A stretch of DNA of 64,000 bases from Candidatus Azambacteria bacterium (GCA_003455995.1 DMPO01000006.1:38397-102396); one strand, 5' to 3'. Numbered from the stretch's first letter, positions 6,114 through 52,886 are shown. A program made the numbers and translations. The notes: a model not told the origin generated them from the sequence alone.

Positions 6114-6114
6114 T

Positions 6115-9072: not shown

Positions 9073-9074
9073 AT

Positions 9075-20281: not shown

Positions 20282-20737
20282 TTGATGAAGTTGATGAAAA
20301 AGAAAGCAAATGAAAGCGTAATAGGGTATGCCTATGTTTGCGCCGATTTATTGCATGCCGGTCACCTTGATCATTTGGAGTTCTGTAAAAAATTTTGCGA
20401 TAAATTGATAGTGGGGGTTCTTACCGATAATGCGGTAATGGAAAAAAAGCCAAGACCAATTTTTGGTTTTGAAGAACGATTGCGGCTGGTTCAGGCCTTG
20501 AAGTGCGTGGATATTGCCGTACCTCAAGAAACCTACTCGCCGCTTAATAACGCGCCCGTTATGGCGGATATTTTATTTGAAAGCGCCGATCATGGAGAAG
20601 GGGCGCTTGAAGAAGCGAAACGGGTTATGAGGGATATAGGCAAAAAGGTAATTGTTGACATATTTCGCCCTCGTCACAATAGACGACCGTCAAGCACCGC
20701 GATTAAGACCAAAATCAAAAAAGAGTGGCAAAAATAA
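20282..20737 (+). CDS. Cytidylyltransferase-like nucleotidyltransferase (glycerol-3-phosphate cytidylyltransferase TagD / RfaE domain II family)
   Basis: GYAYVCADLLHAGHLDHL carries the (T/H)xGH nucleotidyltransferase motif. 151 aa is the typical size. Confidence 0.65.
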   Translation: MMKLMKKKANESVIGYAYVCADLLHAGHLDHLEFCKKFCDKLIVGVLTDNAVMEKKPRPIFGFEERLRLVQALKCVDIAVPQETYSPLNNAPVMADILFESADHGEGALEEAKRVMRDIGKKVIVDIFRPRHNRRPSSTAIKTKIKKEWQK

Positions 20738-24798: not shown

Positions 24799-26043
24799 AT
24801 GATGAAAATCATCATCTTGTCGGATTATTTTGATAATCGCGGAGGAGCCGTCAGTATCGCTAAAACAATGGCTTACGGCTTCAAACAAATGGGCCATAAT
24901 GTCGGCGTGATTACTACAGTCCAAGACAAGGCGCTCGCGGGCCAAAAAATAATTGATGGAGTTAAAATATGGTCTGTTTATTCCAATTATAATCTTTTTT
25001 GGCGCGCTTATCGCAGTTTATACAATCCCCAGACCGTAAAACATATCGCGAAAATTATTGAAGAAATAAAACCGGATGTGGTTCACGCCAATAATATCCA
25101 TGTCCACCTTTCATACCACGCCCTGAAAATTGCCCAAAAAAGCGGGGCCAGAGTATTTTTGACCGCTCACGATGTCATGCCTTTTCATTATGGTAAATTG
25201 ACAGAATTTATAAACCCGAATAATTTATCCTGTCCCGAAAAATTCAATTACAAAATCAGCGTTTGGCGGCAAATAAAAAGAGCGGGCAAAACCTATAACC
25301 CTTTTCGTAATTTAATCATTAGATATTATCTTGAATATGTCGATAAAATTTTTGCCGTTAGCGGCGCGTTGAAAAACGCGCTTAATGACAATGGAATAAA
25401 AAATGTTGAAGTAATTCATAACGGCATTGATGTTTCGGCATGGGCAGTAAACGAAGCGGCCATAGAAGTTTTCAAAGAGAAGCATAATATTCGAAACAAA
25501 AAGGTTGTTTTGTTTGGCGGACGCCTTGGTTGGCTGAAAGGAGGGCGTGAAATTTGCTTGGCGATGAAAAAGGTGATTGAAACAATACCCAACGCGGTTC
25601 TTTTGCTTGCCGGAAAAATAGACGAAGAAGTTAAAGAAATTCTTGATTTTGCCGACAAACTGGGAATTAACAAAAATATTATTGCCGCCGGCTGGCTTTC
25701 GGGTGGCGAGCTTAAAGCCGCCTATAATGTCGCGGATATCGTGACGGCGCCGTCGATTTGTTTCGATTCTTTTCCGACCGTAAATTTGGAAGCGATGGCT
25801 TGCAAAAAGCCGGTTATCGCCACCTGTTTTGGCGGAAGCCGCGAAGCGGTAATAGACGGCGAAACCGGCTATATCGTAAATCCGTTTAACATAGATAAGT
25901 TAGCAGATAAAATAATATATCTATTAAAAAATTCTGAAGTTGCCAGAAAATTCGGCGAAGCGGGGTATGAGAGGGTGAAAAAAGAATTCAGTTCGGAAAA
26001 AATGATCGGTGATTATTTAAATTGGTACGGAAAAATTTTTTAA
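24799..26043 (+). CDS. GT4 family glycosyltransferase
   Basis: VVLFGGRLGWLKGG...NLEAMACKKPVIATCFGG signature. Confidence 0.7.
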   Translation: MMKIIILSDYFDNRGGAVSIAKTMAYGFKQMGHNVGVITTVQDKALAGQKIIDGVKIWSVYSNYNLFWRAYRSLYNPQTVKHIAKIIEEIKPDVVHANNIHVHLSYHALKIAQKSGARVFLTAHDVMPFHYGKLTEFINPNNLSCPEKFNYKISVWRQIKRAGKTYNPFRNLIIRYYLEYVDKIFAVSGALKNALNDNGIKNVEVIHNGIDVSAWAVNEAAIEVFKEKHNIRNKKVVLFGGRLGWLKGGREICLAMKKVIETIPNAVLLLAGKIDEEVKEILDFADKLGINKNIIAAGWLSGGELKAAYNVADIVTAPSICFDSFPTVNLEAMACKKPVIATCFGGSREAVIDGETGYIVNPFNIDKLADKIIYLLKNSEVARKFGEAGYERVKKEFSSEKMIGDYLNWYGKIF

Positions 26044-27416
26044 TGAAAACTATTTTTATTACCGCTTATCATCCTTTTATCTCCAAAAACATTCTTAATA
26101 CGAATGTGTTTGGCATTTTGAAACAAAGAAAAAATTTAAGAATCATTCTTTTAGTTCCGGTTATTTTGAAAGATTTTTTTGAAAACAATTACCGTTTCGA
26201 CAATGTAGTGATTGAGAGTATCGATCTGGCGCCATTCTCAAAATCCCGCCTCAGCAATTTTTTTTCAAGAGCCGCTTTCTTTTTTACTTACAATCACTGG
26301 ATTAGATATAAAAGGATGGAATATTTAAATGCCCATTGGAGTTTTTATAACCTCGTGAAATTTCGTGTTTTTATGGTATTAACGCGAATTTTATCTGGGC
26401 ATAAAATTTTAAATAAAATTTTCAGATTTTTTGACTGGCGTTATTCGCCCAATAATTTTTATAAAGATTATTTTGAAAAATACAAACCCGATATTGTTTT
26501 TTCAACCGATGTTTATGACGATTTTGACCAGGCGCTGATTAAAGAAGCGAAAATAAGAAAGATCTTTGTTATCGGCATGATCCGCTCCTGGGATAATAAT
26601 ATCAGTAAAGGACTAATGAGATGCTTTCCGGATAAATTAATTGTTAATAATGAGGTAATTAAGAAAGAGGCGATAAAACTTCATAATTATCCAGAAGGAA
26701 ATATTTTCATCGGCGGCCTGCCGCAGTTTGACGATTATCTTAAGGCGCCTTTCAAAAGCCGAGAAGAGTTTTTCGAGTCGGCGGGCGGAGATCCCGAAAA
26801 AAGAACGGTTTTATTTTCACCCGGCAGCCGGGGAATTTCCGCGGATGCCAATATTATTATTTGCGAAGCGTTTAAAGCCGCAAAGGAAAGTGGTGATTTG
26901 CCCAAAGATATTCAATTTTTTATCAGAAACCATCCCACCAGGCCAGATAGGGCGCTGGAAAAATTCAAAAATGATTCCGATTTTATTATCGAAATGCCAG
27001 GAAAAATTAAAAATAGCGGGAAATTTCTCGAATTTTCACTTCAAGACAATCGCCATCTTATAGATACCATATATTATTCCGATGTTGTCGTCTGGATTGT
27101 AACCTCGATAGGACTGGACTCTTTAGTTTTTGATAAGCCGCAAATCGTAGTTGATTTTGACGGCCTTGAAAATAAGTCATACTGGTTAAGCGTCAAGCGG
27201 TTCAATGACGAAGAACACATGCTTTTATTCTTTGAAACAGGAGCCGTAAAAATAGCCGATAATTTGGAAAATTTAATTGTTTATATTAAAGAATATCTTG
27301 AAAATCCCTCCATTGATCGCGAAGGAAGAAAAAAAGCCGCTTTGCAACAGCTTTGGAAGGCGGATGGAAAATCAAGCGAAAGAATCGCAAATTTCATTTT
27401 ATCATTCCTTTTTTAA
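26043..27416 (+). CDS. Putative CDP-glycerol glycerophosphotransferase-like protein (TagB/TagF family), uncertain
   Basis: 458 aa soluble protein. The C-terminal half has a FFIRNHPTRPD segment reminiscent of the Glyphos_transf conserved His-Pro region. Context includes a cytidylyltransferase and an OPA transporter. Start placed at the TAATG overlap at 26043. Confidence 0.35.
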   Translation: MKTIFITAYHPFISKNILNTNVFGILKQRKNLRIILLVPVILKDFFENNYRFDNVVIESIDLAPFSKSRLSNFFSRAAFFFTYNHWIRYKRMEYLNAHWSFYNLVKFRVFMVLTRILSGHKILNKIFRFFDWRYSPNNFYKDYFEKYKPDIVFSTDVYDDFDQALIKEAKIRKIFVIGMIRSWDNNISKGLMRCFPDKLIVNNEVIKKEAIKLHNYPEGNIFIGGLPQFDDYLKAPFKSREEFFESAGGDPEKRTVLFSPGSRGISADANIIICEAFKAAKESGDLPKDIQFFIRNHPTRPDRALEKFKNDSDFIIEMPGKIKNSGKFLEFSLQDNRHLIDTIYYSDVVVWIVTSIGLDSLVFDKPQIVVDFDGLENKSYWLSVKRFNDEEHMLLFFETGAVKIADNLENLIVYIKEYLENPSIDREGRKKAALQQLWKADGKSSERIANFILSFLF

Positions 27417-28131
27417 GCTGGCGGAATTTATTTTCCATTTTCTCCCAGTCGGAAGGAATGTTGATGTCTTCATCGTAAAAATCGCTGACAATATAGGGCT
27501 CTTGCTTCTCGCCGCCGAAATAGCAGGGATTTTTTCCGTACAAAATTTTTGGCTTCAAAACAAAAACCAGATCATTTTTGACATAATATTTTGGCAGGAG
27601 CTGGCGGCGCGCCGGAGCGTATTTTACATTCTGGCCTATGGCGTTTAACAGTTCATAACTGTTGCCCCTTTTTACAGGCTGGACAATCCAATAAGGATGA
27701 TGATGGGCGGCCGATAATTCGGAAAGAGGGATCACCACATCTGGGTCTTTTTTCAAAAACAGTTCTATCGCCTCGTCAACCTGTTTAACGTTTCTTAAAG
27801 AATTGGGAGGCATCAGCAAGACGATGGCGTCGGTTTTATAATTTTCATATTTTTTCAGCCATTCTATGGCGTGCCTTAACACCGGCTCCATTTGCGTCGC
27901 GCTCCCGGCTAATTTTTTGGGGCGCAAAAAGGGCGTTTCGGCGCCGTATTTTTTTGCCACTTTGGCTATTTCGGGGCTATCGGTGGAAACAATGGTCCGG
28001 TTTATAAGAGGGCTTTTCAGAGCCGTCTCAATAGCCCAGGCAATCAACGGTTTACCGCAGAAATTTCTTATATTTTTTCCGGGAACCCCTTTTGAATCGC
28101 CCCGGGCAGGCACAATCGCCACGATTTTCAT
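27394..28131 (-). CDS. Acylneuraminate-type cytidylyltransferase (CMP-nonulosonic acid synthetase, NeuA/PseF/LegF family)
   Basis: MKIVAIVPARGDSKGVPGKNIRNFCGKPLIAWAIETA is the canonical CTP_transf_3 N-terminus. Confidence 0.8.
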   Translation of the reverse strand: MKIVAIVPARGDSKGVPGKNIRNFCGKPLIAWAIETALKSPLINRTIVSTDSPEIAKVAKKYGAETPFLRPKKLAGSATQMEPVLRHAIEWLKKYENYKTDAIVLLMPPNSLRNVKQVDEAIELFLKKDPDVVIPLSELSAAHHHPYWIVQPVKRGNSYELLNAIGQNVKYAPARRQLLPKYYVKNDLVFVLKPKILYGKNPCYFGGEKQEPYIVSDFYDEDINIPSDWEKMENKFRQLKKGMIK

Positions 28132-28158
28132 AATTTATGAAATAACATAAAATTAAAA

Positions 28159-28187
28159 ATCCCGCAACGAACGCGGGATTGTTTTTT
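28159..28187 (-). terminator. Hairpin terminator between B12-rSAM gene and CMP-sugar synthetase gene
   Basis: ATCCCGC-AACGAAC-GCGGGAT stem-loop flanked by A/T runs on both strands. Confidence 0.6.
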
Positions 28188-29847
28188 ACATTTCCAAAAT
28201 TTTATATATGTCGCCAGAATCAATGTATCCTCTGGCCTTGACGAAAATATCATCCGGCATGTCGCTGTAATTCAGCGGCTCGCCGGTCTTGGAATTGCGC
28301 AAAACCTTTGTGGCGTCATCCAGCTCCAAAATATACCGGCGCAGGTTTTCATCGCAAACCGGCTCGCCGACAAAATCAAAAGTAATTCCGAAAACTTCAC
28401 GCAGAATTTTTTGAACCTTGGATTGGTGGCCCATTTCCGTTCCCGGATACCAGGTGGCGGTGAACATTTTCTTGTTTACCGAGTCGGCGGACTTGCCGCG
28501 CGTACCATAAAATATCTCTTGCCACTCGATAAAAGCGACGCTCATTTTTAGGTCCTCAAGGGTCTCGGTTGGGTATCCCATTATCCAGGTGCAATTAGCG
28601 TGAATGCCGGCATTTTCGCAATCTATAACGCCCTCTATCATAGAGCTGGGGAATTCGCAAAATTTTCCATTGGCAATAATACCCTTAATCCCTTTTTTGA
28701 GAATAAATCCGCCTTTATTCATCGCTTTCAGGACTTTCGGCGAGGCGCTTTCGGCGCCGAAGCCGATATAAATGCATCCGGCTTCCGCCATTAAATTAAA
28801 TCCCTTTGATTCATCGAGGCGCGCGTGCGTCCCCCAGCGGATATTTAGCGGCTTAAGAAGGGGGACTAAATCAATGATTCTTTTATGGTCGATGGCGAAA
28901 TTATCGTCCACCATCCCAATGAAATCAACTCCATATTTTTCAATATGCATTCTGAATTCCTTGGCAAGATTTTGCGCTGATCGCGCGCCGTAATTTTTTT
29001 CGCCTTGCGCGCCGCGATAGCAGAAAGCGCAATTATACGGACAGCCCCGCGAAGAAACAAAGTTCGTGCTCCGATTCATCGTGAATGAAGCCGCTGAACT
29101 GTTGTTGGCGGAAGCGCCCCAAATTGGATTGCAGATATAGTATTCCAGAATCTTATTGCCAAAAACATCTTCTTTTAGAAAATCCAAATCGGCGAAAGGA
29201 ATGCAGTCCAAATCCCGCGGTCGGTCGCCTTCGTAAACGAAGCGATGCCGGCCGAATATTTCTCCTTTGCCGACTATCGAACCCAAATAATAGGGTTCCA
29301 ATTTTCCGGAATTAATCGCCCGCAAAAAACCCGTTTTTTTGAGAATTCTCGCGTCGTGGGCGGCTTTGACGATTACATCGTCGCCTTCGGAACGGACTAT
29401 GCCGTCCAGGTCGGGGATGTAATTGAAAAGCCCCGCTCTCAATTCGGTGGCGAGGCCGCCGCCGGAAACAAGAAAAACGATCGGCGCCAATTTGCGAACC
29501 ATTTTAGCGACTTTTTCCTGCCAGCGCAATGTGGTGATCATTCCCGAAAGGCCGACCAGATCCGGCTCGCCATGAACTTCAAAATGTTTTTTTATCAGTT
29601 CAAAAACTTCCTGTTCGGTAAGGTGCCGGCCGTTTATTCGATAGCCGTTCAAATCAACTATCGAAACATTAACCTCATAGTTATCGCGCAAATTAGTTGC
29701 CAGAAGCAGGGGGCCTTGGGGCGTGTTGTTTGGCGCCGCCGCTTCTCTTAAAGGCATATTGATAAAAACAACATTTAAGCCGCGCAGATCGGCCGGTTTG
29801 ATATCTTTGATGATATCCGCCGGGTGAATATAATCGCAACTTTTCAT
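28186..29847 (-). CDS. B12-binding domain radical SAM enzyme (class B rSAM, putative methyltransferase)
   Basis: CPYNCAFCY is the CxxxCxxC radical SAM cluster motif. The N-terminal ~150 aa has the cobalamin-binding Rossmann-like layout. The GGAGGAG SD is visible on the minus strand. Confidence 0.8.
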   Translation of the reverse strand: MKSCDYIHPADIIKDIKPADLRGLNVVFINMPLREAAAPNNTPQGPLLLATNLRDNYEVNVSIVDLNGYRINGRHLTEQEVFELIKKHFEVHGEPDLVGLSGMITTLRWQEKVAKMVRKLAPIVFLVSGGGLATELRAGLFNYIPDLDGIVRSEGDDVIVKAAHDARILKKTGFLRAINSGKLEPYYLGSIVGKGEIFGRHRFVYEGDRPRDLDCIPFADLDFLKEDVFGNKILEYYICNPIWGASANNSSAASFTMNRSTNFVSSRGCPYNCAFCYRGAQGEKNYGARSAQNLAKEFRMHIEKYGVDFIGMVDDNFAIDHKRIIDLVPLLKPLNIRWGTHARLDESKGFNLMAEAGCIYIGFGAESASPKVLKAMNKGGFILKKGIKGIIANGKFCEFPSSMIEGVIDCENAGIHANCTWIMGYPTETLEDLKMSVAFIEWQEIFYGTRGKSADSVNKKMFTATWYPGTEMGHQSKVQKILREVFGITFDFVGEPVCDENLRRYILELDDATKVLRNSKTGEPLNYSDMPDDIFVKARGYIDSGDIYKILEM

Positions 29848-29983
29848 AACTCTCCTCCGTTTTATTGTTAGATGTCAAAGACCGCTTTAATTGACGGAAA
29901 CGGTATCATAAAATTAAATCTTTGACAAGGCGATTATTTTATGGTAATTTTCAGTGTCAAAATTTCCCGAACTTTAACAACAA

Positions 29984-30014
29984 CCACCCTTCGGGTGGCC
30001 ACCCGTAGGGGTGG
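29984..30014 (+). promoter_or_regulatory. Twin stem-loop 5' leader element (CCACCC-UUCG-GGUGG then CCACCC-GUAG-GGGUGG) immediately upstream of the SD
   Basis: Two consecutive near-identical hairpins, one with a UUCG tetraloop, end 6 nt before AGGAGG (30021-30026) and the ATG at 30033. Confidence 0.4.
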
Positions 30015-30032
30015 AAAATTAGGAGGTTAAAA

Positions 30033-30911
30033 ATGAAAAAAATTGGATTCATTGGGTTGGGGACTATGGGTTTGCGGATGGTGCAGAGATTGCTTTCCGC
30101 CGGGTATAAGCTGACGGTATATAACCGGACGGCGGAAAAAGCGAACGCGCTGGTGGATAACGGCGCGCGATTTGCCGTCAATCCGAGGCAACTCGCGGAG
30201 CGTTCCGATGTAATTATTACAATGGTCAGTGATGGTCGGGCTGTTCGCGATGTTGCCGAGGGCGTATGGGGGGCATTTTCAGTAGCACAGCGGGGAACGG
30301 TTTTTATTGACTGCAGTACCATTTCGGTCGGGACAACCAAATATCTCGCTTTGAGAGCGGAAAATTTGGGATGCTATTGGCTGGACGCGCCGGCGCTTGG
30401 AGGCCCAGCGGCGGCTGAAGCCGGAGAATTGTCGTTCGTCGTTGGCGGGCCAAAAAATATTCTAGATGAAAATATAGAGATTTTTAACGCCCTCGGCAGA
30501 GTTACTTGGATGGGGGAGTGCGGCATGGGCCAGGCGGCCAAAATTGTCCATAATATGGCCTGCGGCATATCGTTAGCGGCATTCAGCGAAGCGATTATTC
30601 TGGGCGAAAAACTTGGTCTGGAAAGAAAACAAACGATAGAGACGCTATTAAACGGCGCGGTTGGAAGTCCTTTATTAAAGGTGAAGGCGCCTAAATTTGA
30701 AGAAAATGATTTTGAACCCGCTTTTGCGTTAACTATGATGTTAAAGGATTTAACCTTGGCGGAAGACGCCGCCAAAGAATCGGAACTGTTTCTCCCGGCG
30801 CTTTCGGCGGTCAAAAAGCTCTACAATTTAGCGAGAATACGCGGATTTGGCGACGAGGACTCGTCGGCCGTTATTAAAGCGTTTCAATTTTTGACGGAGG
30901 TGAAGCGATGA
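30033..30911 (+). CDS. NAD(P)-dependent beta-hydroxyacid dehydrogenase (HIBADH/tartronate-semialdehyde reductase/6PGDH-like family)
   Basis: MKKIGFIGLGTMGLRMVQRLLSAGYKLTVYNRT is the classic dinucleotide-binding N-terminus of this family. Confidence 0.75.
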   Translation: MKKIGFIGLGTMGLRMVQRLLSAGYKLTVYNRTAEKANALVDNGARFAVNPRQLAERSDVIITMVSDGRAVRDVAEGVWGAFSVAQRGTVFIDCSTISVGTTKYLALRAENLGCYWLDAPALGGPAAAEAGELSFVVGGPKNILDENIEIFNALGRVTWMGECGMGQAAKIVHNMACGISLAAFSEAIILGEKLGLERKQTIETLLNGAVGSPLLKVKAPKFEENDFEPAFALTMMLKDLTLAEDAAKESELFLPALSAVKKLYNLARIRGFGDEDSSAVIKAFQFLTEVKR

Positions 30912-32836
30912 ATGGCGCGGTGATAAAGATTATCCCCCAGTCGGAATTTGTCCGCGTTTGGCAAACAGGCGCAAATTTTTACGCTACGCTCTCTTTGATT
31001 GCCGACATGTGCCGCCTGAACGCGCTTTCGGCGGTTAAACGCGCCGGTTCCGGCCATCTTGGTTCCAGTTTCAGCGCGATGGATATTGTAACATATCTTT
31101 ATTGGTGGGAGATGAATACGATTCGGAAGGGCTTTGATAATCCGAATCGCGATATCTATTTTTCGTCAAAGGGACACGATGTTCCGGGGTTATACGCCGC
31201 GCTTTTTTCGCTTGGTATAATTTCGGAGGAACTTTTTCTGAAACTGCGCCGTCTCGGCGGCCTTCACGGCCATCCGGATATAAACAATTTAGGTATTGAG
31301 GCCAATTCTGGGTCGTTGGGAATGGGAATTTCCAAGGGCCGCGGAATGGCTTGGGCTAAAGAATATTTGGGATTGTCCGGACGAGTTTTCGTGATGACCG
31401 GCGATGGTGAGTTCCAGGAAGGGCAGAATTACGAGGCGCTTCAGGGAGCGGCGCAGTTAATGCAGGATCGCTTAATTGTGGTTATGGACCACAACAAGGT
31501 CCAAAGCGATAAATTGGTCAAAGAAATAGTTGACTTGGGCGATCTTGAAGCGAAGTTCTCGTCATTCGGTTGGTATGTTGAGCGTTGCAACGGCCATGAT
31601 TTTAAGGCGCTTGAAAAAACTTTCGCCAGAATCGATAAAATTACACAAAAACCAAAAATAATAATTGCCAACACAATCAAGGGCAAGGGCGTTTCTTTTA
31701 TGGAACACCCATATGCTCTTAAAGAAAATGGCATATATAAATGGCACGCCGGAGCGCCGGATGACGATTCTTACAAGGTAGCGTTTAAAGAATTGTTTGA
31801 AAAAATTAACACGCGGCTTGCAAAACTATTTTTGGATTCAATCACTACCAAAGAGGTGTGTGATGAAAAAGAGCCGGTCAATCAGAAAAAAGTATCCGGC
31901 GAATATATTGCCGATTCTTACGGCAAGGCGCTTGTGGCATTGGCCGCCGAGCGGGACGATTTCGTGGTATTGGACGCCGATTTGGCGGCGGATTGCCGAT
32001 TGCGCGATTTTGAAAAACAATTTCCGGAACGGTTTATCGAATGCGGCATCGCCGAGCAGGATATGGTGTCCATGGCCGGCGGCTTGGCGCGGCAGGGGAT
32101 TCTCCCGATTGTAAATTCCTTTGGAGCGTTTCTGTCATCGCGCGCCAATGAGCAAATTTACACCAACGCTTGCGAACGGTCCAAGATTATCTATGTTTGC
32201 CATTATGCCGGCCTCATTCCGGCCGGACCGGGAAAATCGCATCAGTGTCTTCGGGATGTCTCATTGTTCGGCGCGTTGCCGGATATGACTATCATTCAGC
32301 CATGCAATGCATGGGAGACGCGGCAGGCGCTTAATTATTGCGTCAATTTTACGGCCAACAGTTCTATGTTGCGTCTCAATATTGGTCCTTCTCCGCGCGT
32401 AATTGAGTTGCTGGCAGAATATGCTTTCACAAAAGGCATAGGCGCTGAACTGACAAAAGGGGAAGACGCGATTCTTTTCGCGTATGGGCCGGTGATGCTC
32501 AATGAAGCGCTTGCCGCTTCGGAGATATTGGCGAAAAAAGGATTTGGATTAAAAGTTGTCAATATGCCGTGGCTGAATTCAGTGGATGTTGAATGGTTAA
32601 GAGCGGTTTTAGGTCCGACTAAAAAAATATTCGTACTGGAAGACCACAATATAATCGGCGGTTTAGGAGATTTTCTGTTAAATCAATTTGTCACCAATAA
32701 ACTTTTGGAAGGGAAGACGTTCCGAAAATTCGGGATAACCGGATTGCCGGCCTGCGGCCGACCTGATGAAGTATTGAAATTTCACGGCCTTGATGGCGCA
32801 ACGTTTGCGAAAAAATCCAACAATAAGGAGGAATGA
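30908..32836 (+). CDS. Transketolase-family ThDP enzyme, fused N- and C-terminal halves
   Basis: GSGHLGSSFSAMDIV, GHPD...NSGSLGMGISKGRGMAWA and TGDGEFQEGQNYEAL in the N-terminal half. FIECGIAEQDMVSMAGGLA in the C-terminal half. An insertion of about 50 aa lies between the halves. Confidence 0.75.
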   Translation: MNGAVIKIIPQSEFVRVWQTGANFYATLSLIADMCRLNALSAVKRAGSGHLGSSFSAMDIVTYLYWWEMNTIRKGFDNPNRDIYFSSKGHDVPGLYAALFSLGIISEELFLKLRRLGGLHGHPDINNLGIEANSGSLGMGISKGRGMAWAKEYLGLSGRVFVMTGDGEFQEGQNYEALQGAAQLMQDRLIVVMDHNKVQSDKLVKEIVDLGDLEAKFSSFGWYVERCNGHDFKALEKTFARIDKITQKPKIIIANTIKGKGVSFMEHPYALKENGIYKWHAGAPDDDSYKVAFKELFEKINTRLAKLFLDSITTKEVCDEKEPVNQKKVSGEYIADSYGKALVALAAERDDFVVLDADLAADCRLRDFEKQFPERFIECGIAEQDMVSMAGGLARQGILPIVNSFGAFLSSRANEQIYTNACERSKIIYVCHYAGLIPAGPGKSHQCLRDVSLFGALPDMTIIQPCNAWETRQALNYCVNFTANSSMLRLNIGPSPRVIELLAEYAFTKGIGAELTKGEDAILFAYGPVMLNEALAASEILAKKGFGLKVVNMPWLNSVDVEWLRAVLGPTKKIFVLEDHNIIGGLGDFLLNQFVTNKLLEGKTFRKFGITGLPACGRPDEVLKFHGLDGATFAKKSNNKEE

Positions 32837-32840
32837 AGAT

Positions 32841-33347
32841 ATGGATTTTGAGTTGCTTGAAAAATTGCGAAAAATAAAACTTTTGGTGCTTGATTGCGAC
32901 GGCGTTCTGACTGACAGCTATGTCTATGTGAACAATGATGGCAATGAATTTTGTCGGTTTAGCCATCGCGATGGCAAGGGGATTCAACTGATTCGGGAAG
33001 CGGGGATTGAAGTGGCGATAATAACAAGCCAGAAAAGCCCCTATGTTAAAAAAAGATGCGATAAGATGGGCGTTGAATTTCACCAAGCCATTACGAACAA
33101 ACTAAGAAATCTTGGTGATATGCTTGAAGACAAAAAGATGCGTTTTCAAGAAGTTTGTTTTGTCGGCGACGATGTTAGCGACATCGCGGTAATGAATAAT
33201 GTCGGTTTGCCCATAGCGGTAGCCGATGCCGAAGAAGAAGTAAAAAAAATCACCGCATATATTACTAAAAGAAAAGGCGGCGAGCACGCCGTTCGCGAAG
33301 TTTGCAATCTGATTTTGGAAGCAAGAAGGTGTCGTAATGAATTCTGA
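32841..33347 (+). CDS. HAD-superfamily phosphatase, KdsC family (KDO-8-P / nonulosonate-9-P phosphatase type)
   Basis: LVLDCDGVLTD (DxDGV motif I) and FVGDDVSDIAVM (motif IV), about 170 aa. AAGGAGG SD before the ATG at 32841. Confidence 0.75.
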   Translation: MDFELLEKLRKIKLLVLDCDGVLTDSYVYVNNDGNEFCRFSHRDGKGIQLIREAGIEVAIITSQKSPYVKKRCDKMGVEFHQAITNKLRNLGDMLEDKKMRFQEVCFVGDDVSDIAVMNNVGLPIAVADAEEEVKKITAYITKRKGGEHAVREVCNLILEARRCRNEF

Positions 33348-34155
33348 AGCGTATAAAATGTTCTCGGTAGAGAACAAAGTGATTGTCATTACCGGCGGCG
33401 CCGGATTTCTTGGGATGCAATTTGCCAAAGCGTTAGGTTTGGCCGGCGCCCAGATTGTGATTTGGGACAATTGTGATTTCAGTTTTCTGCAATCGCAAGC
33501 CGTCTTGTTGAGGCAAAAAAATATCAAGTGCATTGCCCAAGATGTTGATTTAACGGATATGGTAGTAGTTAACAAAATGGCAAATTCGGTTATTGAAAAA
33601 TTTGACCGCATTGATGTTCTTATCAACAACGCCGCGCTCAATCCGGCTGTTGACAGCGCCGAAGCCGAGCAAATGTTCTCGCCTTACGAAAAATATCCCG
33701 TTGATCTGTTCAAGAAGGAGGTAGAAGTGGATTTGATTGGAACGCATCTTTGCATTCAGGCGGCGGCGCCGCAAATGATAAAGCGAAGATCGGGGGTGAT
33801 TTTAAATATCTCCTCCGAATACGCCAATATTGCCGCCGACAATCGAATCTACGGCGAAGGTCAGTTCAAGTCCATCGCCTATATTGCCGCCAAAAGTGGA
33901 GTTCTCGGACTCACTCGAGGCTGGGCGTCTTATCTGGGAGAGTATGGCGTTCGCGTTAACGCTTTTACTCCCGGTGGCATGCCCAAGCCGGAAGTGTCGG
34001 AAGAATTCCGACGAAAATATTCTTCACTAAATATGCTGGGGCGGACGGCAAATCCCGGAGAATATGACGGCGCGATTTTGTTCTTGTGTTCCGACGCTTC
34101 CTCATTTATGACCGGCAATCAGCTTGTCATGGATGGCGGCAAAAGCGCATGGTGA
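33337..34155 (+). CDS. Short-chain dehydrogenase/reductase (classical SDR)
   Basis: VIVITGGAGFLG Rossmann motif, NNAA, YIAAK catalytic YxxxK. The exact start is uncertain between 33337 and 33358. Confidence 0.7.
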   Translation: MNSEAYKMFSVENKVIVITGGAGFLGMQFAKALGLAGAQIVIWDNCDFSFLQSQAVLLRQKNIKCIAQDVDLTDMVVVNKMANSVIEKFDRIDVLINNAALNPAVDSAEAEQMFSPYEKYPVDLFKKEVEVDLIGTHLCIQAAAPQMIKRRSGVILNISSEYANIAADNRIYGEGQFKSIAYIAAKSGVLGLTRGWASYLGEYGVRVNAFTPGGMPKPEVSEEFRRKYSSLNMLGRTANPGEYDGAILFLCSDASSFMTGNQLVMDGGKSAW

Positions 34156-34169
34156 GAGAAGGAGGGCAT

Positions 34170-35042
34170 ATGGTAAAAATAGAAAACATATTTGTCGGAG
34201 ACGACCACCCATGTTTTATAGTCGCCGAAATCGGAATCAATCATAATGGCAGTTTGGAAATTGCCAAAAAGATGATTGATTTGGCGGCCGAATCCGGCTG
34301 CGATGCCGTGAAATTTCAAAAACGGACGCCGGATTTATGCGTTCCCGACGAACAGAAAAATATGATGTACGAAACCCCTTGGGGGTTGATACCGTATATC
34401 GAATACCGGCATAAGATTGAATTCGGGCAGAAGGGATATGAACAAATTGATGATTATTGCCGGAGGAAAGGAATCATGTGGTTCGCTTCCTGTTGGGACG
34501 AAGATAGCGTCGATTTTATCGAAAAGTTCGATCCTCCTTGCTACAAAATCGGCTCGGCGTCTTTAACCGACAGAAATCTTTTGCTCCATACTCGGTTTAA
34601 AAACAAGCCCGTTATTCTTTCAACGGGGATGAGCACGATGGAGCAGGTTTATGGCGCAGTTGATACTTTGGGGAGAGAGGACTTAATCCTCTTGCACTGT
34701 GTCGGGACTTATCCCGTGCCCGATCATGAAAATAATTTGAGGGTTATCAATACCCTGCGGGAAACATTTCCGGAAGTGCCGATTGGATACAGCGGGCATT
34801 GCCGCGGCACCACTTTGGGCGTTTGCGCCGTCGCCTTGGGCGCTTGCGTAGTAGAGAGGCACATCACGCTTGACCGCGAAATGTGGGGGTCCAATCAGGC
34901 GGCAAGCTTGGGGCCGGAGGGACTTAAGCTGATGGTCGGCAACATCCGCCGGCTGGAACTCGCTTTAGGCGACGGAGTCAAGAGAGTTTTAGAATCGGAG
35001 GTTCCTCTGATTATGAAGCTCCGCCGAAAAGTTGATTTTTGA
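34170..35042 (+). CDS. N-acylneuraminate/nonulosonate synthase family protein (NeuB-like TIM barrel), lacking C-terminal SAF domain
   Basis: MVKIENIFVGDDHPCFIVAEIGINHNGSLEIAKKMIDLAAESGCDAVKFQKR is the hallmark NeuB N-terminus. GAAGGAGGG SD before the ATG at 34170. 291 aa, shorter than typical ~340-aa NeuB. Confidence 0.75.
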   Translation: MVKIENIFVGDDHPCFIVAEIGINHNGSLEIAKKMIDLAAESGCDAVKFQKRTPDLCVPDEQKNMMYETPWGLIPYIEYRHKIEFGQKGYEQIDDYCRRKGIMWFASCWDEDSVDFIEKFDPPCYKIGSASLTDRNLLLHTRFKNKPVILSTGMSTMEQVYGAVDTLGREDLILLHCVGTYPVPDHENNLRVINTLRETFPEVPIGYSGHCRGTTLGVCAVALGACVVERHITLDREMWGSNQAASLGPEGLKLMVGNIRRLELALGDGVKRVLESEVPLIMKLRRKVDF

Positions 35043-35091: not shown

Positions 35092-35115
35092 GCCCCGTTA
35101 ACTAACGGGGCTTTT
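35092..35115 (+). terminator. Rho-independent terminator (shared convergent-gene region)
   Basis: GCCCCGTTA-loop-TAACGGGGC followed by TTTT. Overlaps the stop codon of the minus-strand flippase gene. Confidence 0.65.
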
Positions 35116-36360
35116 GAATTTCCAAAGCGCGATGCTTATAAAAAATATGATGATATAATAAATCACCTGCGCCAGAACTAATCCCAAAATGCCGCCCCAA
35201 ATGCCGAGCGCCACATACAAAATTATTTTGACAATACTGGAAGAGATACTGCTTGACGCGATGGCTCCGAACATTTTTTGGGAGTTGATGGCCGTTCCGA
35301 TATAGCCCACCGGAGCGATGAAAATAAAAGATAATGCCAAAATTTGAGAATAGAAAATTGAGTCAATATATTTGGGCAATAAATATTTAAATACTAAAGG
35401 CGATACTAAAATATATCCGACGGCGAGAAGCGCTCCCAAACCGATTGCCTGAAATATTCTTTTGTAAAAAACTTCGTCTATCTCCTCGGTATTTTTAACG
35501 GCAAGCTTGGGCAGTCCGAGATTTATGATGCTTTTTATAAACGGCCCGACTTTATCCGGAATTGCTCGCGCCAGAGAATACACCGCCAATGGCGCCGGAC
35601 CCCAAAAATGAACAAGAACGATGCTATCGGTTTGCGCCACAATCGGGCCGATGAATCCCAAAAGCGTCAGCCGGCGGCCGTATTTGACGACATCTCCGGC
35701 CGGCGCCAACGGCGGATTAAAAATCTGCAGTGTTTTCCAATAAAAAAATATATTGGCAATCAGAGTAGTTAAAGCGTAGGCGATAATAAGCGGCAATATT
35801 TCCTTGCTTAACAGCGTTGCCAGCAACATTCCGGCGGCGTATATGGCGGTTGAAAAAATACTGAATAAATTATTGATTTTAAATTGTTTTTTGCCGTCAA
35901 GATACGCGCCGTAGGTATTGAACGCGAAAGTCAGGGGTGTAAATATGCCAAAAATAAGGAAAGAAATCGCAAGAATTTGATTATCGTTTAGAAAATAATA
36001 ACCTCCCAATCCCCACATAGCGATTGCCATCATAACATTCCATTTCAACTGGTATCTGACGGAAGTTCTTAACGCCCCTTCATTGCCGGTGGCCGTGGCT
36101 TGGCTGACCGCCGCGTTCATTCCGGTCATGGTAAAAACATTGAATATGCCCGCCAAAGACAAAATATAGCGGTAAAATCCGTAGGTTTCTTTCGGAAGCA
36201 AATTCGCGAAAGCGATTATCAAAAGGAAGGAAATCGAGCTATTCATTCCTTGTCCGAAAGCCGTCCAAAAACCGCCGCCGGCGAAATATTTTAAATCCAA
36301 GCCAAAAAATTCGGTGCCATAGTTTATGAATTTATGGTAAATTTCTTTTTTACTTTCCAT
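35098..36360 (-). CDS. Polysaccharide/O-antigen flippase (Wzx-like, MOP superfamily)
   Basis: 420 aa with about 12 TM helices. N-terminal pattern typical of Polysacc_synt proteins. Upstream of the initiating sugar transferase. Confidence 0.6.
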   Translation of the reverse strand: MESKKEIYHKFINYGTEFFGLDLKYFAGGGFWTAFGQGMNSSISFLLIIAFANLLPKETYGFYRYILSLAGIFNVFTMTGMNAAVSQATATGNEGALRTSVRYQLKWNVMMAIAMWGLGGYYFLNDNQILAISFLIFGIFTPLTFAFNTYGAYLDGKKQFKINNLFSIFSTAIYAAGMLLATLLSKEILPLIIAYALTTLIANIFFYWKTLQIFNPPLAPAGDVVKYGRRLTLLGFIGPIVAQTDSIVLVHFWGPAPLAVYSLARAIPDKVGPFIKSIINLGLPKLAVKNTEEIDEVFYKRIFQAIGLGALLAVGYILVSPLVFKYLLPKYIDSIFYSQILALSFIFIAPVGYIGTAINSQKMFGAIASSSISSSIVKIILYVALGIWGGILGLVLAQVIYYIIIFFISIALWKFKSPVS

Positions 36361-37718: not shown

Positions 37719-39920
<2,202 letters not shown>

Positions 39921-42532: not shown

Positions 42533-42563
42533 TTTTGTTTACTATAAACATATTGCGATTACC

Positions 42564-43280: not shown

Positions 43281-43281
43281 A

Positions 43282-44172: not shown

Positions 44173-44174
44173 CC

Positions 44175-44786: not shown

Positions 44787-44803
44787 AAACCTAGGCGGAA
44801 GGC

Positions 44804-46390: not shown

Positions 46391-46418
46391 TGGACAATCA
46401 AGTTTTATGTTCTATAAT
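46391..46418 (+). promoter_or_regulatory. Candidate sigma70 promoter TGGACA-N16-TATAAT
   Basis: -35 at 46391-46396 and a perfect -10 at 46413-46418, upstream of the signal-peptide start at 46482. Confidence 0.4.
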
Positions 46419-46481
46419 AAACAACGAGCGCGTGAAAACGCAAGTAAGAATTTTATAATTAATTTAATTAAAATAAATACA

Positions 46482-52874: not shown

Positions 52875-52886
52875 ATAAAAATTATT

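What the first reader, a model, noticed from the sequence alone, without database searches (positions are those of the whole stretch)
27394..35042. Atypical nonulosonic-acid-like pathway island with transketolase, HIBADH-family dehydrogenase, SDR and B12-radical SAM
Seen in sequence: a NeuB-family synthase (34170-35042), a KdsC-family HAD phosphatase (32841-33347) and a NeuA-family CMP-sugar synthetase (27394-28131). These sit with a fused transketolase, a HIBADH-type dehydrogenase, a classical SDR and a B12-rSAM. Established knowledge: NeuB homolog plus KdsC-type phosphatase plus CMP-synthetase is the phosphorylated-intermediate (Neu5Ac-9-P/KDN-9-P-type) route known from animals and from Bacteroides KDN biosynthesis. 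The usual sugar-supplying enzymes of canonical sialic/pseudaminic/legionaminic pathways (NeuC-type 2-epimerase, PseB/PseC dehydratase/aminotransferase) are absent here. Inference: a ThDP enzyme and two dehydrogenases may build an unusual phosphosugar acceptor, possibly chain-extended or rearranged by ketol transfer. It would then be condensed with PEP, dephosphorylated, possibly C-methylated by the B12-rSAM, and CMP-activated. I am not aware of this enzyme combination in a characterised ulosonic-acid pathway. The whole block is GC-richer than its surroundings and carries strong AGGAGG SDs.
Basis: partly seen in the sequence, partly recalled or inferred. Interest (0 to 1): 0.85.

Follow-up and report, generated by a model that had tools for sequence, protein, structure and literature searches.

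The report
Transketolase-containing ulosonic acid sugar pathway
A tiny groundwater bacterium carries a gene set for an activated sialic-acid-like sugar that includes a dedicated transketolase; the same uncharacterised set recurs across more than fifteen phyla and probably trims the sugar chain by two carbons.

Summary
All seven genes lie at the stated coordinates: NeuB-family synthase (no SAF domain), KdsC-subfamily phosphatase, CTP_transf_3 cytidylyltransferase, fused transketolase (TK), HIBADH-family dehydrogenase, SDR and a class-B-type radical SAM enzyme. The block is GC-richer than its flanks and carries GGAGG ribosome-binding sites.

The TK is not a pentose-phosphate enzyme. This 576-kb genome has a separate split TK beside glycolytic genes. 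Relatives of the fused TK were found in at least 582 species genomes. In 32 of 46 well-flanked loci they sit with NeuB and usually SDR, phosphatase and cytidylyltransferase. The remaining conserved slot holds an aldehyde dehydrogenase (commonest), a class-III aminotransferase (Bacteroidota, Ignavibacteria) or, as here, a HIBADH enzyme. All three act on aldehydes.

The TK keeps its cofactor and donor-binding residues but lacks a phosphate-clamp arginine in 76 of 76 members.

My inference, about 40% likely: NeuB and the phosphatase make a free ulosonic acid, the SDR oxidises the penultimate hydroxyl, the TK removes two carbons, and the new aldehyde is reduced here (oxidised or aminated elsewhere) before CMP activation. 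This mirrors the known gluconate to tartrate route. I found no paper describing it. Chain length, the TK acceptor and the radical SAM chemistry remain open.

The parts
26022..27416 (+). TagF-like (Glyphos_transf) GT-B protein; candidate transferase or polymerase for the pathway product or for glycerol phosphate
   Evidence: Pfam PF04464, 45.5 bits. It is 77% identical to the syntenic gene in L001. TagF-like genes flank the TK in 15 of 46 well-flanked loci. The TTG start is uncertain.
27394..28131 (-). CMP-ulosonate synthetase (CTP_transf_3 family)
   Evidence: PF02348, 85 bits. PseF model 137 bits, below its cut-off; KdsB models much weaker. Conserved next to the TK in 28 of 46 loci.
28186..29847 (-). 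Radical SAM enzyme with class-B (B12-domain) architecture; chemistry unresolved (C-methylation or AprD4-like deoxygenation)
   Evidence: Pfam and NCBIfam. Invariant C269/C273/C276. AlphaFold2 model pLDDT 84. Foldseek top hits AprD4, TsrM, OxsB, MgmA, TokK, CysS. The family is restricted to CPR and DPANN and sits with NeuB-SDR-HAD-CMP even where no TK is present.
29848..30032 (.). Divergent intergenic region between the rSAM-CMP operon and the HIBADH-to-NeuB operon
   Evidence: Promoter-like site on the minus strand at 29960-29933, 11 of 12 matches. A TTGACA hexamer is conserved in the syntenic spacers of L001, L106 and L107. No Rfam family matches.
30033..30911 (+). HIBADH-family (beta-hydroxyacid / 2-hydroxy-aldehyde) dehydrogenase; proposed reductase of the TK-generated aldehyde
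   Evidence: PF03446 plus PF14833. Best NCBIfam models are tartronate-semialdehyde reductase (211 bits), HIBADH (198) and sulfolactaldehyde reductase (153), all below their cut-offs. About 40 ortholog clusters at 51-87% identity, then a gap to 44%. Also found next to the TK in L001, L106, L107 and L108.
30908..32836 (+). Dedicated fused transketolase-like ThDP enzyme lacking the canonical phosphate clamp
   Evidence: Three TK Pfam domains. TK equivalog NF004559 scores 397 bits against a cut-off of 488. Nearest solved structure is human TK, 232 bits. Cofactor and donor residues are invariant; the E. coli R520 position is Ile and the E477 position is Arg. At least 582 species genomes carry relatives.
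32841..33347 (+). KdsC-subfamily HAD phosphatase (ulosonate omega-phosphate phosphatase)
   Evidence: TIGR01670, 154 bits, above its 107 cut-off. KdsC equivalog 161 bits (cut-off 208); KDN-9-P phosphatase model 117 bits (cut-off 180). Nearest PDB entries are KdsC (125 bits), ahead of the B. thetaiotaomicron KDN-9-P phosphatase entries (82 bits). AAGGAGG site before 32841.
33337..34155 (+). Cassette-specific classical SDR; proposed (omega-1)-hydroxyl dehydrogenase that makes a ketol terminus
   Evidence: PF13561 and PF00106. Top NCBIfam model is gluconate 5-dehydrogenase; the orthologs in L003 and L011 rank gluconate-5-DH, mannonate oxidoreductase, GolD/DthD and KduD above FabG, by small margins. 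All cassette SDRs form one clade with 100/100 support.
34170..35042 (+). NeuB-family PEP-condensing ulosonate synthase without SAF domain
   Evidence: PF03102, 258 bits. NeuB and PseI equivalog cut-offs are not reached. Nearest PDB entries are SpsE, PseI and a 290-aa SAF-less NeuB, 6ncs. It is the only NeuB in the genome.
35092..35111 (+). Terminator-like hairpin that closes the HIBADH-to-NeuB operon and faces the convergent flippase gene
   Evidence: Eight-pair stem with six G-C pairs, followed by a T-run.
35098..37690 (-). Wzx-type flippase (35098-36360) and polyprenyl-phosphate glycosylphosphotransferase (36350-37690): assembly context
   Evidence: Polysacc_synt 77 bits; Bac_transf 188 bits; TIGR03025 306 bits, above its cut-off. 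Syntenic in L001 and L107.

Best explanation
The block is a dedicated pathway to a CMP-activated 3-deoxy-2-ulosonic acid for a Wzx/Wzy-type surface glycan. It is built round a widely conserved, uncharacterised cassette that contains its own transketolase.

Shown:
- The seven genes form two divergent operons.
- The fused TK is additional to a housekeeping split TK in the same genome.
- TK, NeuB, cassette SDR, KdsC-type phosphatase and CMP-transferase travel together across many phyla.
- The remaining conserved slot is filled by an aldehyde dehydrogenase, a class-III aminotransferase or a HIBADH enzyme.
- The TK keeps its ThDP and donor residues but lacks a phosphate-clamp arginine.

Inferred order:
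1. NeuB condenses PEP with an aldose omega-phosphate.
2. The KdsC-type phosphatase frees the terminal hydroxyl.
3. The SDR oxidises the penultimate hydroxyl, giving a HOCH2-CO- ketol end.
4. The TK takes this ketol as donor and cuts off two carbons, leaving a 2-hydroxy-aldehyde at the new chain end.
5. In this organism the HIBADH enzyme reduces that aldehyde to an alcohol, giving an ulosonic acid two carbons shorter. Elsewhere the aldehyde is oxidised to a diacid (an ulosaric acid) or transaminated to an omega-amino sugar.
6. The cytidylyltransferase makes the CMP-sugar.
7. A TagF-like or KpsC/S-like transferase installs it.

The radical SAM enzyme adds a CPR/DPANN-specific change, either C-methylation or deoxygenation. 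The starting aldose, and so the chain length (C9 to C7 or C8 to C6), and the TK's C2 acceptor are unknown.
For: Gene families.

Synteny in CPR relatives.

Conservation across phyla: the order NeuB(+SAF)-HAD-SDR-ALDH-CMP-TK occurs in Marinimicrobia, Chloroflexota, Deltaproteobacteria, Acidobacteriota, Gemmatimonadota, Actinomycetota, Melainabacteria, Proteobacteria and others. Of 46 loci with at least 8 kb on both sides of the TK, 32 have NeuB, 28 ALDH, 4 the aminotransferase, 28 SDR and 28 CMP-transferase.

Unlinked cases: five of five genomes where the TK stands alone carry the rest of the cassette elsewhere.

Co-occurrence: in 301 Chloroflexota genomes the ALDH ortholog is in 6 and the TK in 8. 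All 6 ALDH-positive genomes have the TK within about 3 kb.

Aminotransferase variant: CMP-TK-AT3-SDR-HAD-NeuB.

ALDH: the best model is alpha-ketoglutarate-semialdehyde (2,5-dioxovalerate) dehydrogenase, which acts on the omega-aldehyde of a 2-keto-3-deoxy acid (below cut-off).

SDR: the top models are enzymes that oxidise the penultimate carbon of sugar acids or polyols.

TK residues: H26, H66, H100, H261, H473, D155, N185 and E411 (E. coli numbering) are invariant. R520 is Ile or Ser in 76 of 76. The H461 column is never His. E477 is Arg in 73 of 76. The same genome's split TK keeps R520 and the R358 equivalent.

Precedent: gluconate-5-DH, then TK, then semialdehyde DH converts gluconate via 5-ketogluconate to tartrate (PMC7970118, PMC13527115). 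An E. coli TktA engineered for 5-ketogluconate carries R358I/H461S/R520Q, the same positions (PMC12016104).

Stereochemistry (my derivation from Fischer projections): the 8-keto form of a Man- or Glc-derived nonulosonate and the 7-keto form of Kdo both have the D-threo configuration that TK donors need.
Against: - No step has been tested biochemically.
- The SDR's similarity to gluconate-5-DH and KduD exceeds that to FabG by only 10-40 bits, and a tree does not place it with E. coli KduD or IdnO.
- Some Chloroflexota loci have NeuB-ALDH-CMP-TK with no SDR or phosphatase within 10 kb.
- HIBADH orthologs also occur with NeuB, SDR and CMP-transferase but no TK within 8 kb (L109).
- TK-less CPR and DPANN cassettes still keep an SDR, so the SDR may serve the rSAM instead.
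- The C2 acceptor is unidentified, and a TK without a phosphate clamp would bind the usual phosphosugar acceptors poorly.
- The E. coli R358 column aligns differently in two alignments.
- Neither arabinose-5-P isomerase nor a clear phosphomannose isomerase was found in the 94%-complete genome, so the NeuB substrate is unknown.
- No shortened ulosonic acid of this kind is known to me from bacterial glycans.
Confidence: 0.42

Rival explanations
1. The TK, HIBADH and SDR act before NeuB and build an unusual aldose phosphate by ketol transfer and redox steps. NeuB then condenses it with PEP, and the product is dephosphorylated, perhaps methylated, and CMP-activated.
For: The window has no NeuC, PseB/C or aminotransferase genes. 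The 94%-complete genome has no hit for arabinose-5-P isomerase or type-I phosphomannose isomerase, so some supply route is needed. TK reactions are reversible.
Against: The TK family lacks the phosphate-clamp Arg that the same genome's housekeeping TK keeps. The synthetic product of a TK is a ketose, and the cassette holds no isomerase. Orthologous NeuB-SDR-HAD-rSAM-CMP modules work without a TK nearby in other CPR and DPANN genomes. An ALDH or aminotransferase in the same slot would destroy the aldehyde that NeuB needs.
Confidence: 0.2
2. Chain extension or branching. The SDR makes an aldehyde or ketone on the free or CMP-bound ulosonate. The TK then adds a two-carbon ketol from a ketose or hydroxypyruvate, giving a C10-C11 or branched ulosonic acid. 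The HIBADH enzyme or the aminotransferase then modifies the new ketone.
For: The donor-binding histidines for a dihydroxyethyl-ThDP intermediate are all conserved. ThDP enzymes are known to add C2 branches to keto-sugars (established knowledge, for example YerE). CMP-activated ulosonic acids with backbones longer than C9 have been detected with no known route (bioRxiv 10.64898/2026.04.20.719630).
Against: The commonest partner is an aldehyde dehydrogenase (28 of 46 loci), which has no substrate after a ketol addition. The SDR's nearest models oxidise penultimate, not terminal, carbons. If the SDR made the terminal aldehyde directly, a HIBADH-type reduction would be futile.
Confidence: 0.15
3. 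Chain shortening before NeuB. The SDR and TK convert an aldonic acid (5-ketogluconate-like) into a four-carbon aldehyde-acid such as tartaric semialdehyde. NeuB condenses it with PEP and gives a 3-deoxy-heptulosaric (Dha-like) diacid directly.
For: This is the same SDR-then-TK precedent as the tartrate route (PMC7970118, PMC13527115, PMC12016104), and the TK's active-site changes match it. PEP plus a C4 aldehyde-acid gives the C7 diacid skeleton.
Against: It leaves the conserved KdsC-type phosphatase without a role. ALDH, aminotransferase and HIBADH would compete with NeuB for the same aldehyde.
Confidence: 0.1
4. The TK is an ordinary pentose-phosphate or DXS-type enzyme that lies in the glycan locus by chance or as a general supply of sugar phosphates.
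For: MAG annotators label homologs as transketolase or DXP synthase. Pfam shows a weak DXP_synthase_N overlap.
Against: A housekeeping split TK lies elsewhere beside glycolytic genes. Neighbourhood conservation spans many phyla. In 301 Chloroflexota genomes all 6 ALDH-positive genomes have the TK adjacent, with only 8 TK-positive genomes in total. The DXS equivalog scores 175 bits against a cut-off of 466, and the TK equivalogs are also below cut-off.
Confidence: 0.03

Closest known systems
KDN pathway of Bacteroides thetaiotaomicron and the animal Neu5Ac-9-P route (synthase, HAD phosphatase, CMP-synthetase)
   Same: A NeuB-family synthase, a KdsC/HAD-IIIA C0-type phosphatase and a CTP_transf_3 cytidylyltransferase are encoded together. 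This implies a phosphorylated ulosonate intermediate.
   Different: None of the equivalog cut-offs is reached (NeuB, KDN-9-P phosphatase, PseF, KdsB). The NeuB has no SAF domain. The cassette adds a TK, an SDR and an aldehyde-processing enzyme, and here also a radical SAM enzyme. No phosphomannose isomerase was found in the genome.
Gluconate to 5-ketogluconate to tartaric semialdehyde to tartrate route (gluconate-5-dehydrogenase, transketolase, semialdehyde dehydrogenase)
   Same: The same enzyme triad and logic: oxidise the penultimate carbon of a sugar acid, remove C2 with a TK, then oxidise the new aldehyde. The engineered 5-ketogluconate-active TktA (R358I/H461S/R520Q) changes the same positions that are naturally non-canonical in this family (PMC12016104, PMC13527115).
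   Different: That route relies on promiscuous housekeeping or engineered TKs acting on an aldonic acid. Here a dedicated, conserved TK clade is built into a nucleotide-sugar operon, the presumed substrate is a 3-deoxy-2-ulosonic acid, and the product is CMP-activated.
Kdo8N biosynthesis in Shewanella (KdnB oxidase and KdnA aminotransferase acting on Kdo before CMP activation; established knowledge)
   Same: The terminal carbon of a free ulosonic acid is tailored through an aldehyde that is then transaminated. This resembles the Bacteroidota/Ignavibacteria aminotransferase variant of the cassette.
   Different: Kdo8N involves no TK and no chain shortening, uses an iron-type alcohol oxidase rather than an SDR, and starts from KdsA-made Kdo rather than a NeuB product. 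I could not compare sequences with KdnA or KdnB here.
Class B (cobalamin-domain) radical SAM enzymes: TsrM, TokK, CysS, OxsB and the cobalamin-free AprD4
   Same: An N-terminal Rossmann-like domain joined to a radical SAM core. The CxxxCxxC motif is present. These are the top fold matches.
   Different: Only 13-17% identity to any solved member. The B12-binding Pfam hit is below cut-off. The family is confined to CPR and DPANN ulosonate clusters. The substrate and reaction are unknown.

Membership tests
NeuB family (PEP-condensing ulosonate synthases) | NeuB TIM-barrel domain (PF03102) above the gathering score | tested here: met
   258 bits against a cut-off of 22.1. Nearest PDB entries are SpsE, PseI and NeuB.
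N-acetylneuraminate synthase or pseudaminate synthase (equivalogs) | Score above the TIGR03569 or TIGR03586 cut-off, and a C-terminal SAF domain | tested here: not met
   256.5 bits against 399.65, and 211.4 against 340.25. No SAF hit; the protein is 290 aa.
KdsC / YrbI subfamily of HAD-IIIA phosphatases | Score above the TIGR01670 subfamily cut-off | tested here: met
   154.1 bits against 106.95. The top PDB hits are KdsC enzymes.
Kdo-8-P phosphatase or KDN-9-P phosphatase (equivalogs) | Score above the NF007019 or NF058599 cut-off | tested here: not met
   161.2 bits against 208, and 116.9 against 180.
CMP-ulosonate synthetases (CTP_transf_3) | PF02348 above cut-off; equivalog assignment to PseF, NeuA or KdsB | tested here: inconclusive
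   The family is met (85 bits against 22.6). PseF scores 137 against 205.7 and the KdsB models score 54 bits or less, so none is met. The sugar specificity is unknown.
Transketolase (EC 2.2.1.1) | Three TK domains, the ThDP/Mg motif and activating Glu, and the donor-binding histidines | tested here: met
   PF00456, PF02779 and PF02780 all hit. H26, H66, H100, H261, H473, D155, N185 and E411 (E. coli numbering) are invariant in 76 of 76.
Transketolase (EC 2.2.1.1) | Phosphate-binding clamp for sugar-phosphate substrates (E. coli R358, H461, R520), and an equivalog score | tested here: not met
   R520 is Ile or Ser in 76 of 76. The H461 column is never His. The R358 equivalent is Ala, Val, Ile or Thr in 26 of 26, although that linker aligns less reliably. 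NF004559 scores 397 bits against 488.
1-deoxy-D-xylulose-5-phosphate synthase | Score above the TIGR00204 cut-off | tested here: not met
   175 bits against 466.
HIBADH / beta-hydroxyacid dehydrogenase family | NAD_binding_2 plus NAD_binding_11 domains; equivalog for tartronate-semialdehyde reductase or HIBADH | tested here: inconclusive
   Both domains are met (151 and 91.5 bits). The equivalogs are not met (211 bits against 341; 198 against 292).
Class B cobalamin-dependent radical SAM methyltransferases | Radical SAM core with CxxxCxxC, and an N-terminal cobalamin-binding domain | tested here: inconclusive
   The core and motif are met. B12-binding scores 29.9 bits against 32.1. The fold matches both cobalamin enzymes and cobalamin-free AprD4. 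Cobalamin binding cannot be tested with these tools.
Canonical Neu5Ac, legionaminic or pseudaminic acid pathways | NeuC-type 2-epimerase or PseB/LegB dehydratase, PseC/LegC aminotransferase and an N-acetyltransferase | tested here: not met
   Pfam scans of essentially all window ORFs of 120 aa or more found none of these.

The most novel reading that the evidence does not exclude
A dedicated transketolase clade performs a two-carbon truncation of free 3-deoxy-2-ulosonic acids. This would create a previously unrecognised family of CMP-activated sugars: ulosaric diacids, omega-amino forms and shortened ulosonic acids. Bacteria of more than fifteen phyla would use them in surface glycans. In CPR and DPANN organisms a lineage-specific class-B-type radical SAM enzyme would modify the sugar further.
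Probability: 0.4. Interest if true: 0.85.

Novelty: new variant of a known kind. Interest (0 to 1): 0.72.

Why it matters
Ulosonic acids (sialic acids, Kdo, pseudaminic and legionaminic acids) shape how bacterial surfaces are recognised by hosts, phages and immune systems. Every known route tailors the sugar before the NeuB or KdsA condensation, or by acylation. None uses a ThDP enzyme.

A conserved cassette with a transketolase, found in hundreds of mostly uncultured species, would add a new reaction type to nucleotide-sugar biosynthesis: carbon-carbon cleavage of a finished ulosonic acid. It would also predict new acidic or amino sugars in environmental glycans.

It would give a natural transketolase already adapted to non-phosphorylated sugar acids, which is what engineers have been building for tartrate production.

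In the host organism about 48 kb of a 576-kb genome encodes glycan synthesis. Surface sugars therefore appear to matter greatly to these episymbiotic bacteria.

Tried and rejected
- Literature searches for a TK in ulosonic acid clusters, for heptulosaric or ulosaric acids in bacteria, and for nonulosonic acids in CPR bacteria found nothing describing this cassette. The library is limited, so this is not proof of absence.
- An Rfam scan of 25.5-38.5 kb found no TPP or cobalamin riboswitch and no other family above threshold.
- Two tetraloop hairpins upstream of the HIBADH gene are not conserved in relatives.
- An SDR tree with E. coli KduD, IdnO and FabG did not resolve which of them is closest. 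It showed only that the cassette SDRs form their own clade.
- The E. coli S385 and D469 equivalents in the TK were examined and dropped as arguments. The mapping between long and short TKs is ambiguous, and the housekeeping split TK also lacks the Asp.
- The E. coli R358 column moved between two alignments, so it is used only with a caveat.
- Sequencing-run search: the DNA is held by groundwater and soil metagenome runs, and no RNA holder is listed.
- Genome searches for the NeuB substrate supply (KdsD/KpsF, phosphomannose isomerase types I and II) found nothing above threshold, so chain length could not be inferred.
- I did not use complex prediction, because no binding claim is made.

Full report
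**1. The observation**

| Coordinates | Assignment | Key scores |
|---|---|---|
| 27394-28131(-) | CTP_transf_3 cytidylyltransferase | 85 bits (cut-off 22.6); nearest model PseF, 137 bits, below cut-off |
| 28186-29847(-) | Radical SAM enzyme with weak N-terminal B12-binding domain | Radical_SAM 61.9 bits; B12-binding 29.9 bits (cut-off 32.1) |
| 30033-30911(+) | HIBADH-family dehydrogenase | NAD_binding_2 and NAD_binding_11 |
| 30908-32836(+) | Transketolase, 642 aa, all three TK domains in one chain | nearest TK equivalog 397 bits (cut-off 488) |
| 32841-33347(+) | KdsC-subfamily HAD phosphatase | TIGR01670 154 bits (cut-off 107) |
| 33337-34155(+) | Classical SDR | adh_short_C2 131 bits |
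| 34170-35042(+) | NeuB-family synthase, no SAF domain | 258 bits |

GC is 0.43-0.48 over the block, against 0.38 upstream. A terminator-like hairpin at 35092-35111 closes the plus-strand operon. The two operons diverge from a 185-bp spacer. No Rfam family, and so no TPP or cobalamin riboswitch, is present.

**2. Context**

The window is 11% of a 576-kb, 94%-complete genome. Its closest named homologs are Candidatus Azambacteria and Parcubacteria, so this is a CPR bacterium. The DNA is found in groundwater and soil metagenome runs.

Roughly positions 1-48,000 form one large glycan region. It holds glycosyltransferases, methyltransferases, deoxy-sugar and C-methyl-sugar genes, a TagD-like cytidylyltransferase, Wzx, a Wzy/ligase-like protein and a priming phosphotransferase. 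No NeuC-type epimerase and no PseB/C-type or DegT enzymes occur in the window.

A second, split transketolase at 52026-53882 lies among GAPDH, class-I aldolase and a PfkB kinase. That is the housekeeping enzyme.

**3. The cassette is real and widespread**

The fused TK has thousands of close relatives at 60-78% identity. They span Chloroflexota, Desulfobacterota, Bacteroidota, Ignavibacteriota, Acidobacteriota, Gemmatimonadota, Actinomycetota, Proteobacteria, Cyanobacteria/Melainabacteria, Marinimicrobia, CPR and others.

Neighbourhoods show a recurrent order: NeuB(+SAF), HAD phosphatase, SDR, aldehyde dehydrogenase, CMP-transferase, TK.

Among 46 loci with at least 8 kb on both sides of the TK:

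| Neighbour | Loci |
|---|---|
| NeuB | 32 |
| ALDH | 28 |
| SDR | 28 |
| CMP-transferase | 28 |
| Phosphatase | 20 |
| TagF-like gene | 15 |
| 570-aa protein with a weak KpsC/KpsS (Capsule_synth) hit | 11 |

In five genomes where the TK stood alone, the rest of the cassette was present elsewhere in the genome in all five.

In a sample of 301 Chloroflexota genomes the cassette ALDH ortholog occurred in 6 and the TK in 8. All 6 ALDH-positive genomes had the TK within about 3 kb.

The CPR form seen in the window is TagF-like, CMP-transferase(-), rSAM(-), HIBADH, TK, phosphatase, SDR, NeuB, then flippase. It is syntenic in three further assemblies.

**4. Three variants of one slot**

Besides the ALDH type there are two others.
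- Bacteroidota and Ignavibacteriota carry CMP-transferase, TK, class-III aminotransferase, SDR, phosphatase and SAF-less NeuB.
- CPR bacteria and one other lineage carry a HIBADH enzyme.

The SDRs of all three types form one clade with 100/100 support, apart from E. coli KduD, IdnO and FabG. The cassette is therefore one evolving unit in which a single position is exchanged among three enzymes that all take an aldehyde: to an acid, an amine or an alcohol.

The ALDH's best-scoring models are 2,5-dioxovalerate (alpha-ketoglutarate semialdehyde) dehydrogenases, which act on the terminal aldehyde of a 2-keto-3-deoxy acid (below cut-off). The HIBADH's best models, tartronate-semialdehyde and sulfolactaldehyde reductases, reduce 2-hydroxy-aldehydes that carry an anionic tail.

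**5. The transketolase active site**

I aligned 76 family members with E. coli TktA and with the same genome's split TK.

| E. coli position | Role | Family | Same-genome split TK |
|---|---|---|---|
| H26, H66, H100, H261, H473, D155, N185, E411 | ThDP/Mg binding and donor binding | invariant | conserved |
| R520 | phosphate clamp | Ile (60) or Ser (16) | Arg |
| H461 | phosphate clamp | never His (an adjacent His in 58) | Gly |
| R358 (human R318; split-TK R305) | phosphate clamp | Ala/Val/Ile/Thr in a 26-sequence alignment | Arg |
| E477 | acidic in canonical TKs | Arg in 73 of 76 | Glu |

The R358 linker aligns less reliably than the other columns.

A published E. coli TktA variant with raised activity on the non-phosphorylated sugar acid 5-ketogluconate carries exactly R358I/H461S/R520Q (PMC12016104). 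The family looks like a natural transketolase for a non-phosphorylated, probably carboxylate-bearing, ketol substrate.

**6. Proposed mechanism (inference)**

The SDR's top-ranking models oxidise the penultimate carbon of sugar acids or polyols and give a HOCH2-CO- end: gluconate 5-dehydrogenase, SDR-type mannonate oxidoreductase, GolD/DthD, KduD and sorbitol-6-P dehydrogenase. Their margins over FabG are small. A HOCH2-CO- end is the donor motif of transketolase.

The sequence gluconate-5-dehydrogenase, transketolase, semialdehyde dehydrogenase is the proposed route from gluconate to tartrate. It has now been demonstrated in extracts and engineered yeast (PMC7970118, PMC13527115).

Mapped onto the cassette, the steps are:
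1. NeuB and PEP with an aldose omega-phosphate give an ulosonate omega-phosphate.
2. The phosphatase frees the terminal hydroxyl. This must come first, because the ketol needs a free hydroxyl.
3. The SDR makes the (omega-1)-ketone.
4. The TK removes two carbons.
5. The new 2-hydroxy-aldehyde is reduced by HIBADH here, and oxidised or aminated in the other variants.
6. CMP activation follows.
7. A TagF-like or KpsC/S-like enzyme transfers the sugar.

From Fischer projections, the 8-keto derivative of a mannose- or glucose-derived nonulosonate and the 7-keto derivative of Kdo both have the D-threo configuration that TK donors require. Either C9 to C7 or C8 to C6 is stereochemically plausible.

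This is the only order I found that gives every conserved enzyme a role and explains all three variants.
- Direct oxidation of the terminal carbon would make the HIBADH step futile.
- Chain extension would leave the ALDH without a substrate.
- An upstream role for the TK would set the slot enzymes against NeuB for the same aldehyde.

**7. Weaknesses**

- Nothing has been tested biochemically.
- Some Chloroflexota loci lack a nearby SDR and phosphatase.
- One HIBADH ortholog sits with NeuB, SDR and CMP-transferase but has no TK within 8 kb.
- TK-less CPR and DPANN modules keep an SDR.
- The acceptor for the C2 unit is unknown.
- The genome shows no arabinose-5-P isomerase and no clear phosphomannose isomerase, so the NeuB substrate is unknown.
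- The phosphatase is nearer KdsC than the KDN-9-P phosphatase, while the cytidylyltransferase is nearer PseF/NeuA than KdsB. These hints on chain length conflict.

I put the specific mechanism at about 0.4. The more general claim, a dedicated and conserved TK-containing ulosonate pathway, I put at about 0.9.

**8. The radical SAM enzyme**

Its family is confined to CPR and DPANN organisms. It accompanies NeuB-SDR-phosphatase-CMP modules even where no TK is present: Yanofskybacteria in L092 and Nanoarchaeota in L093. It therefore belongs to a lineage-specific base module, and TK plus HIBADH look like an added unit.

The AlphaFold2 model (pLDDT 84) matches AprD4, TsrM, OxsB, MgmA, TokK and CysS with TM-scores around 0.5-0.58. 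That supports a class-B architecture. The best match, AprD4, is a cobalamin-free sugar diol dehydratase that works with a reductase.

**9. Comparison with known systems, and novelty**

At family level the block has the synthase, phosphatase and CMP-synthetase trio of the KDN and Neu5Ac-9-P routes. It fails every equivalog cut-off, lacks the SAF domain, and adds four enzymes those routes do not have.

The SDR-TK-ALDH logic has a precedent only in tartrate formation by promiscuous or engineered transketolases. The aminotransferase variant recalls Kdo8N tailoring.

I found no description of the cassette in the searchable literature. SAF-less environmental NeuBs have been noted without an assigned function (PMC8208679). 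CMP-ulosonic acids with unexplained backbones have been reported.

I rate this a new variant of a known kind (CMP-ulosonic acid biosynthesis). It has a probably new reaction step and a directly testable mechanism.

Noticed in passing
window 52026-52874 and 52887-53882 (+): A split (N- and C-subunit) housekeeping transketolase in a low-GC central-carbon cluster with GAPDH (50325-51383), class-I fructose-bisphosphate aldolase (54187-55149) and a PfkB kinase (55152-56144). A further TK N-subunit lies on contig 9 of the genome.
   Followed up: partly
window 1-48000: About 48 kb of a 576-kb genome is one continuous glycan-biosynthesis region. It holds many GT2/GT4 glycosyltransferases, at least seven SAM methyltransferases, four PMT_2/ArnT-like membrane transferases, a polysaccharide deacetylase, a TagD-like cytidylyltransferase (20282-20737), an MFS transporter and a Wzy_C-TPR protein (37719-39920).
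   Followed up: partly
window 4884-9464 (+): A separate deoxy-sugar pathway: a TylCIII-type sugar C-methyltransferase (Methyltransf_13/14, 4884-6113), an NDP-hexose 4,6-dehydratase (6067-7167), an epimerase/reductase (7164-8219), an RmlD-like reductase (8044-9072) and an FdtA-like isomerase (9075-9464). This suggests a branched (C-methyl) 6-deoxyhexose.
   Followed up: no
window 42495-46333: A second GC-rich block (0.46-0.50): GT2, NTP_transferase and NUDIX genes on the plus strand, and a second B12-binding radical SAM enzyme (44804-46333, minus strand; B12-binding 45.7 bits, above cut-off). A 662-aa protein with a PG_binding_1 domain follows (46407-48395).
   Followed up: no
window 29983-30014 (+): Two adjacent hairpins (CCACCC-UUCG-GGUGG and CCACCC-GUAG-GGGUGG) lie just upstream of the HIBADH ribosome-binding site. 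The fold z-score is only -2, and the hairpins are not conserved in the syntenic spacers of L001, L106 and L107.
   Followed up: yes
L094:9152-10555 (Candidatus Sungiibacteriota, CP066690.1): A reverse transcriptase (RVT_1) and a bAvd accessory gene, the marks of a diversity-generating retroelement, lie directly beside the rSAM homolog and near SDR, AP_endonuc_2, aminotransferase and CTP_transf_3 genes.
   Followed up: no
L093:4056-5693 and L109:3790-5910: Two gene fusions in related ulosonate clusters: CTP_transf_3 fused to a TylF-type O-methyltransferase (Nanoarchaeota), and NeuB-SAF fused to an AP_endonuc_2 (xylose-isomerase-like TIM barrel) domain, 706 aa.
   Followed up: no
L040, L052, L053, L014, L080 (cluster c16, e.g. 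L052:805-2469): An enolase-superfamily (MR_MLE) protein of about 554 aa recurs next to the cassette TK in Actinomycetota and some other loci. Such enzymes need a carboxylate with an alpha-proton. That would fit a distal carboxylate made by the ALDH, but I did not examine this further.
   Followed up: no
L106:2055-4014 and L107:2055-4021: CPR relatives carry an extra pair, a 414-aa radical SAM enzyme and a 225-aa SDR, between the GT4 and TagF-like genes. The window lacks this pair.
   Followed up: no
whole genome G000: No match to KdsD/KpsF (TIGR00393) or type-I phosphomannose isomerase, and only a sub-threshold cupin hit for the type-II enzyme, although the window encodes a GDP-mannose 4,6-dehydratase (17535-18518). 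The source of mannose and of the NeuB substrate is unclear; it may be the host.
   Followed up: partly
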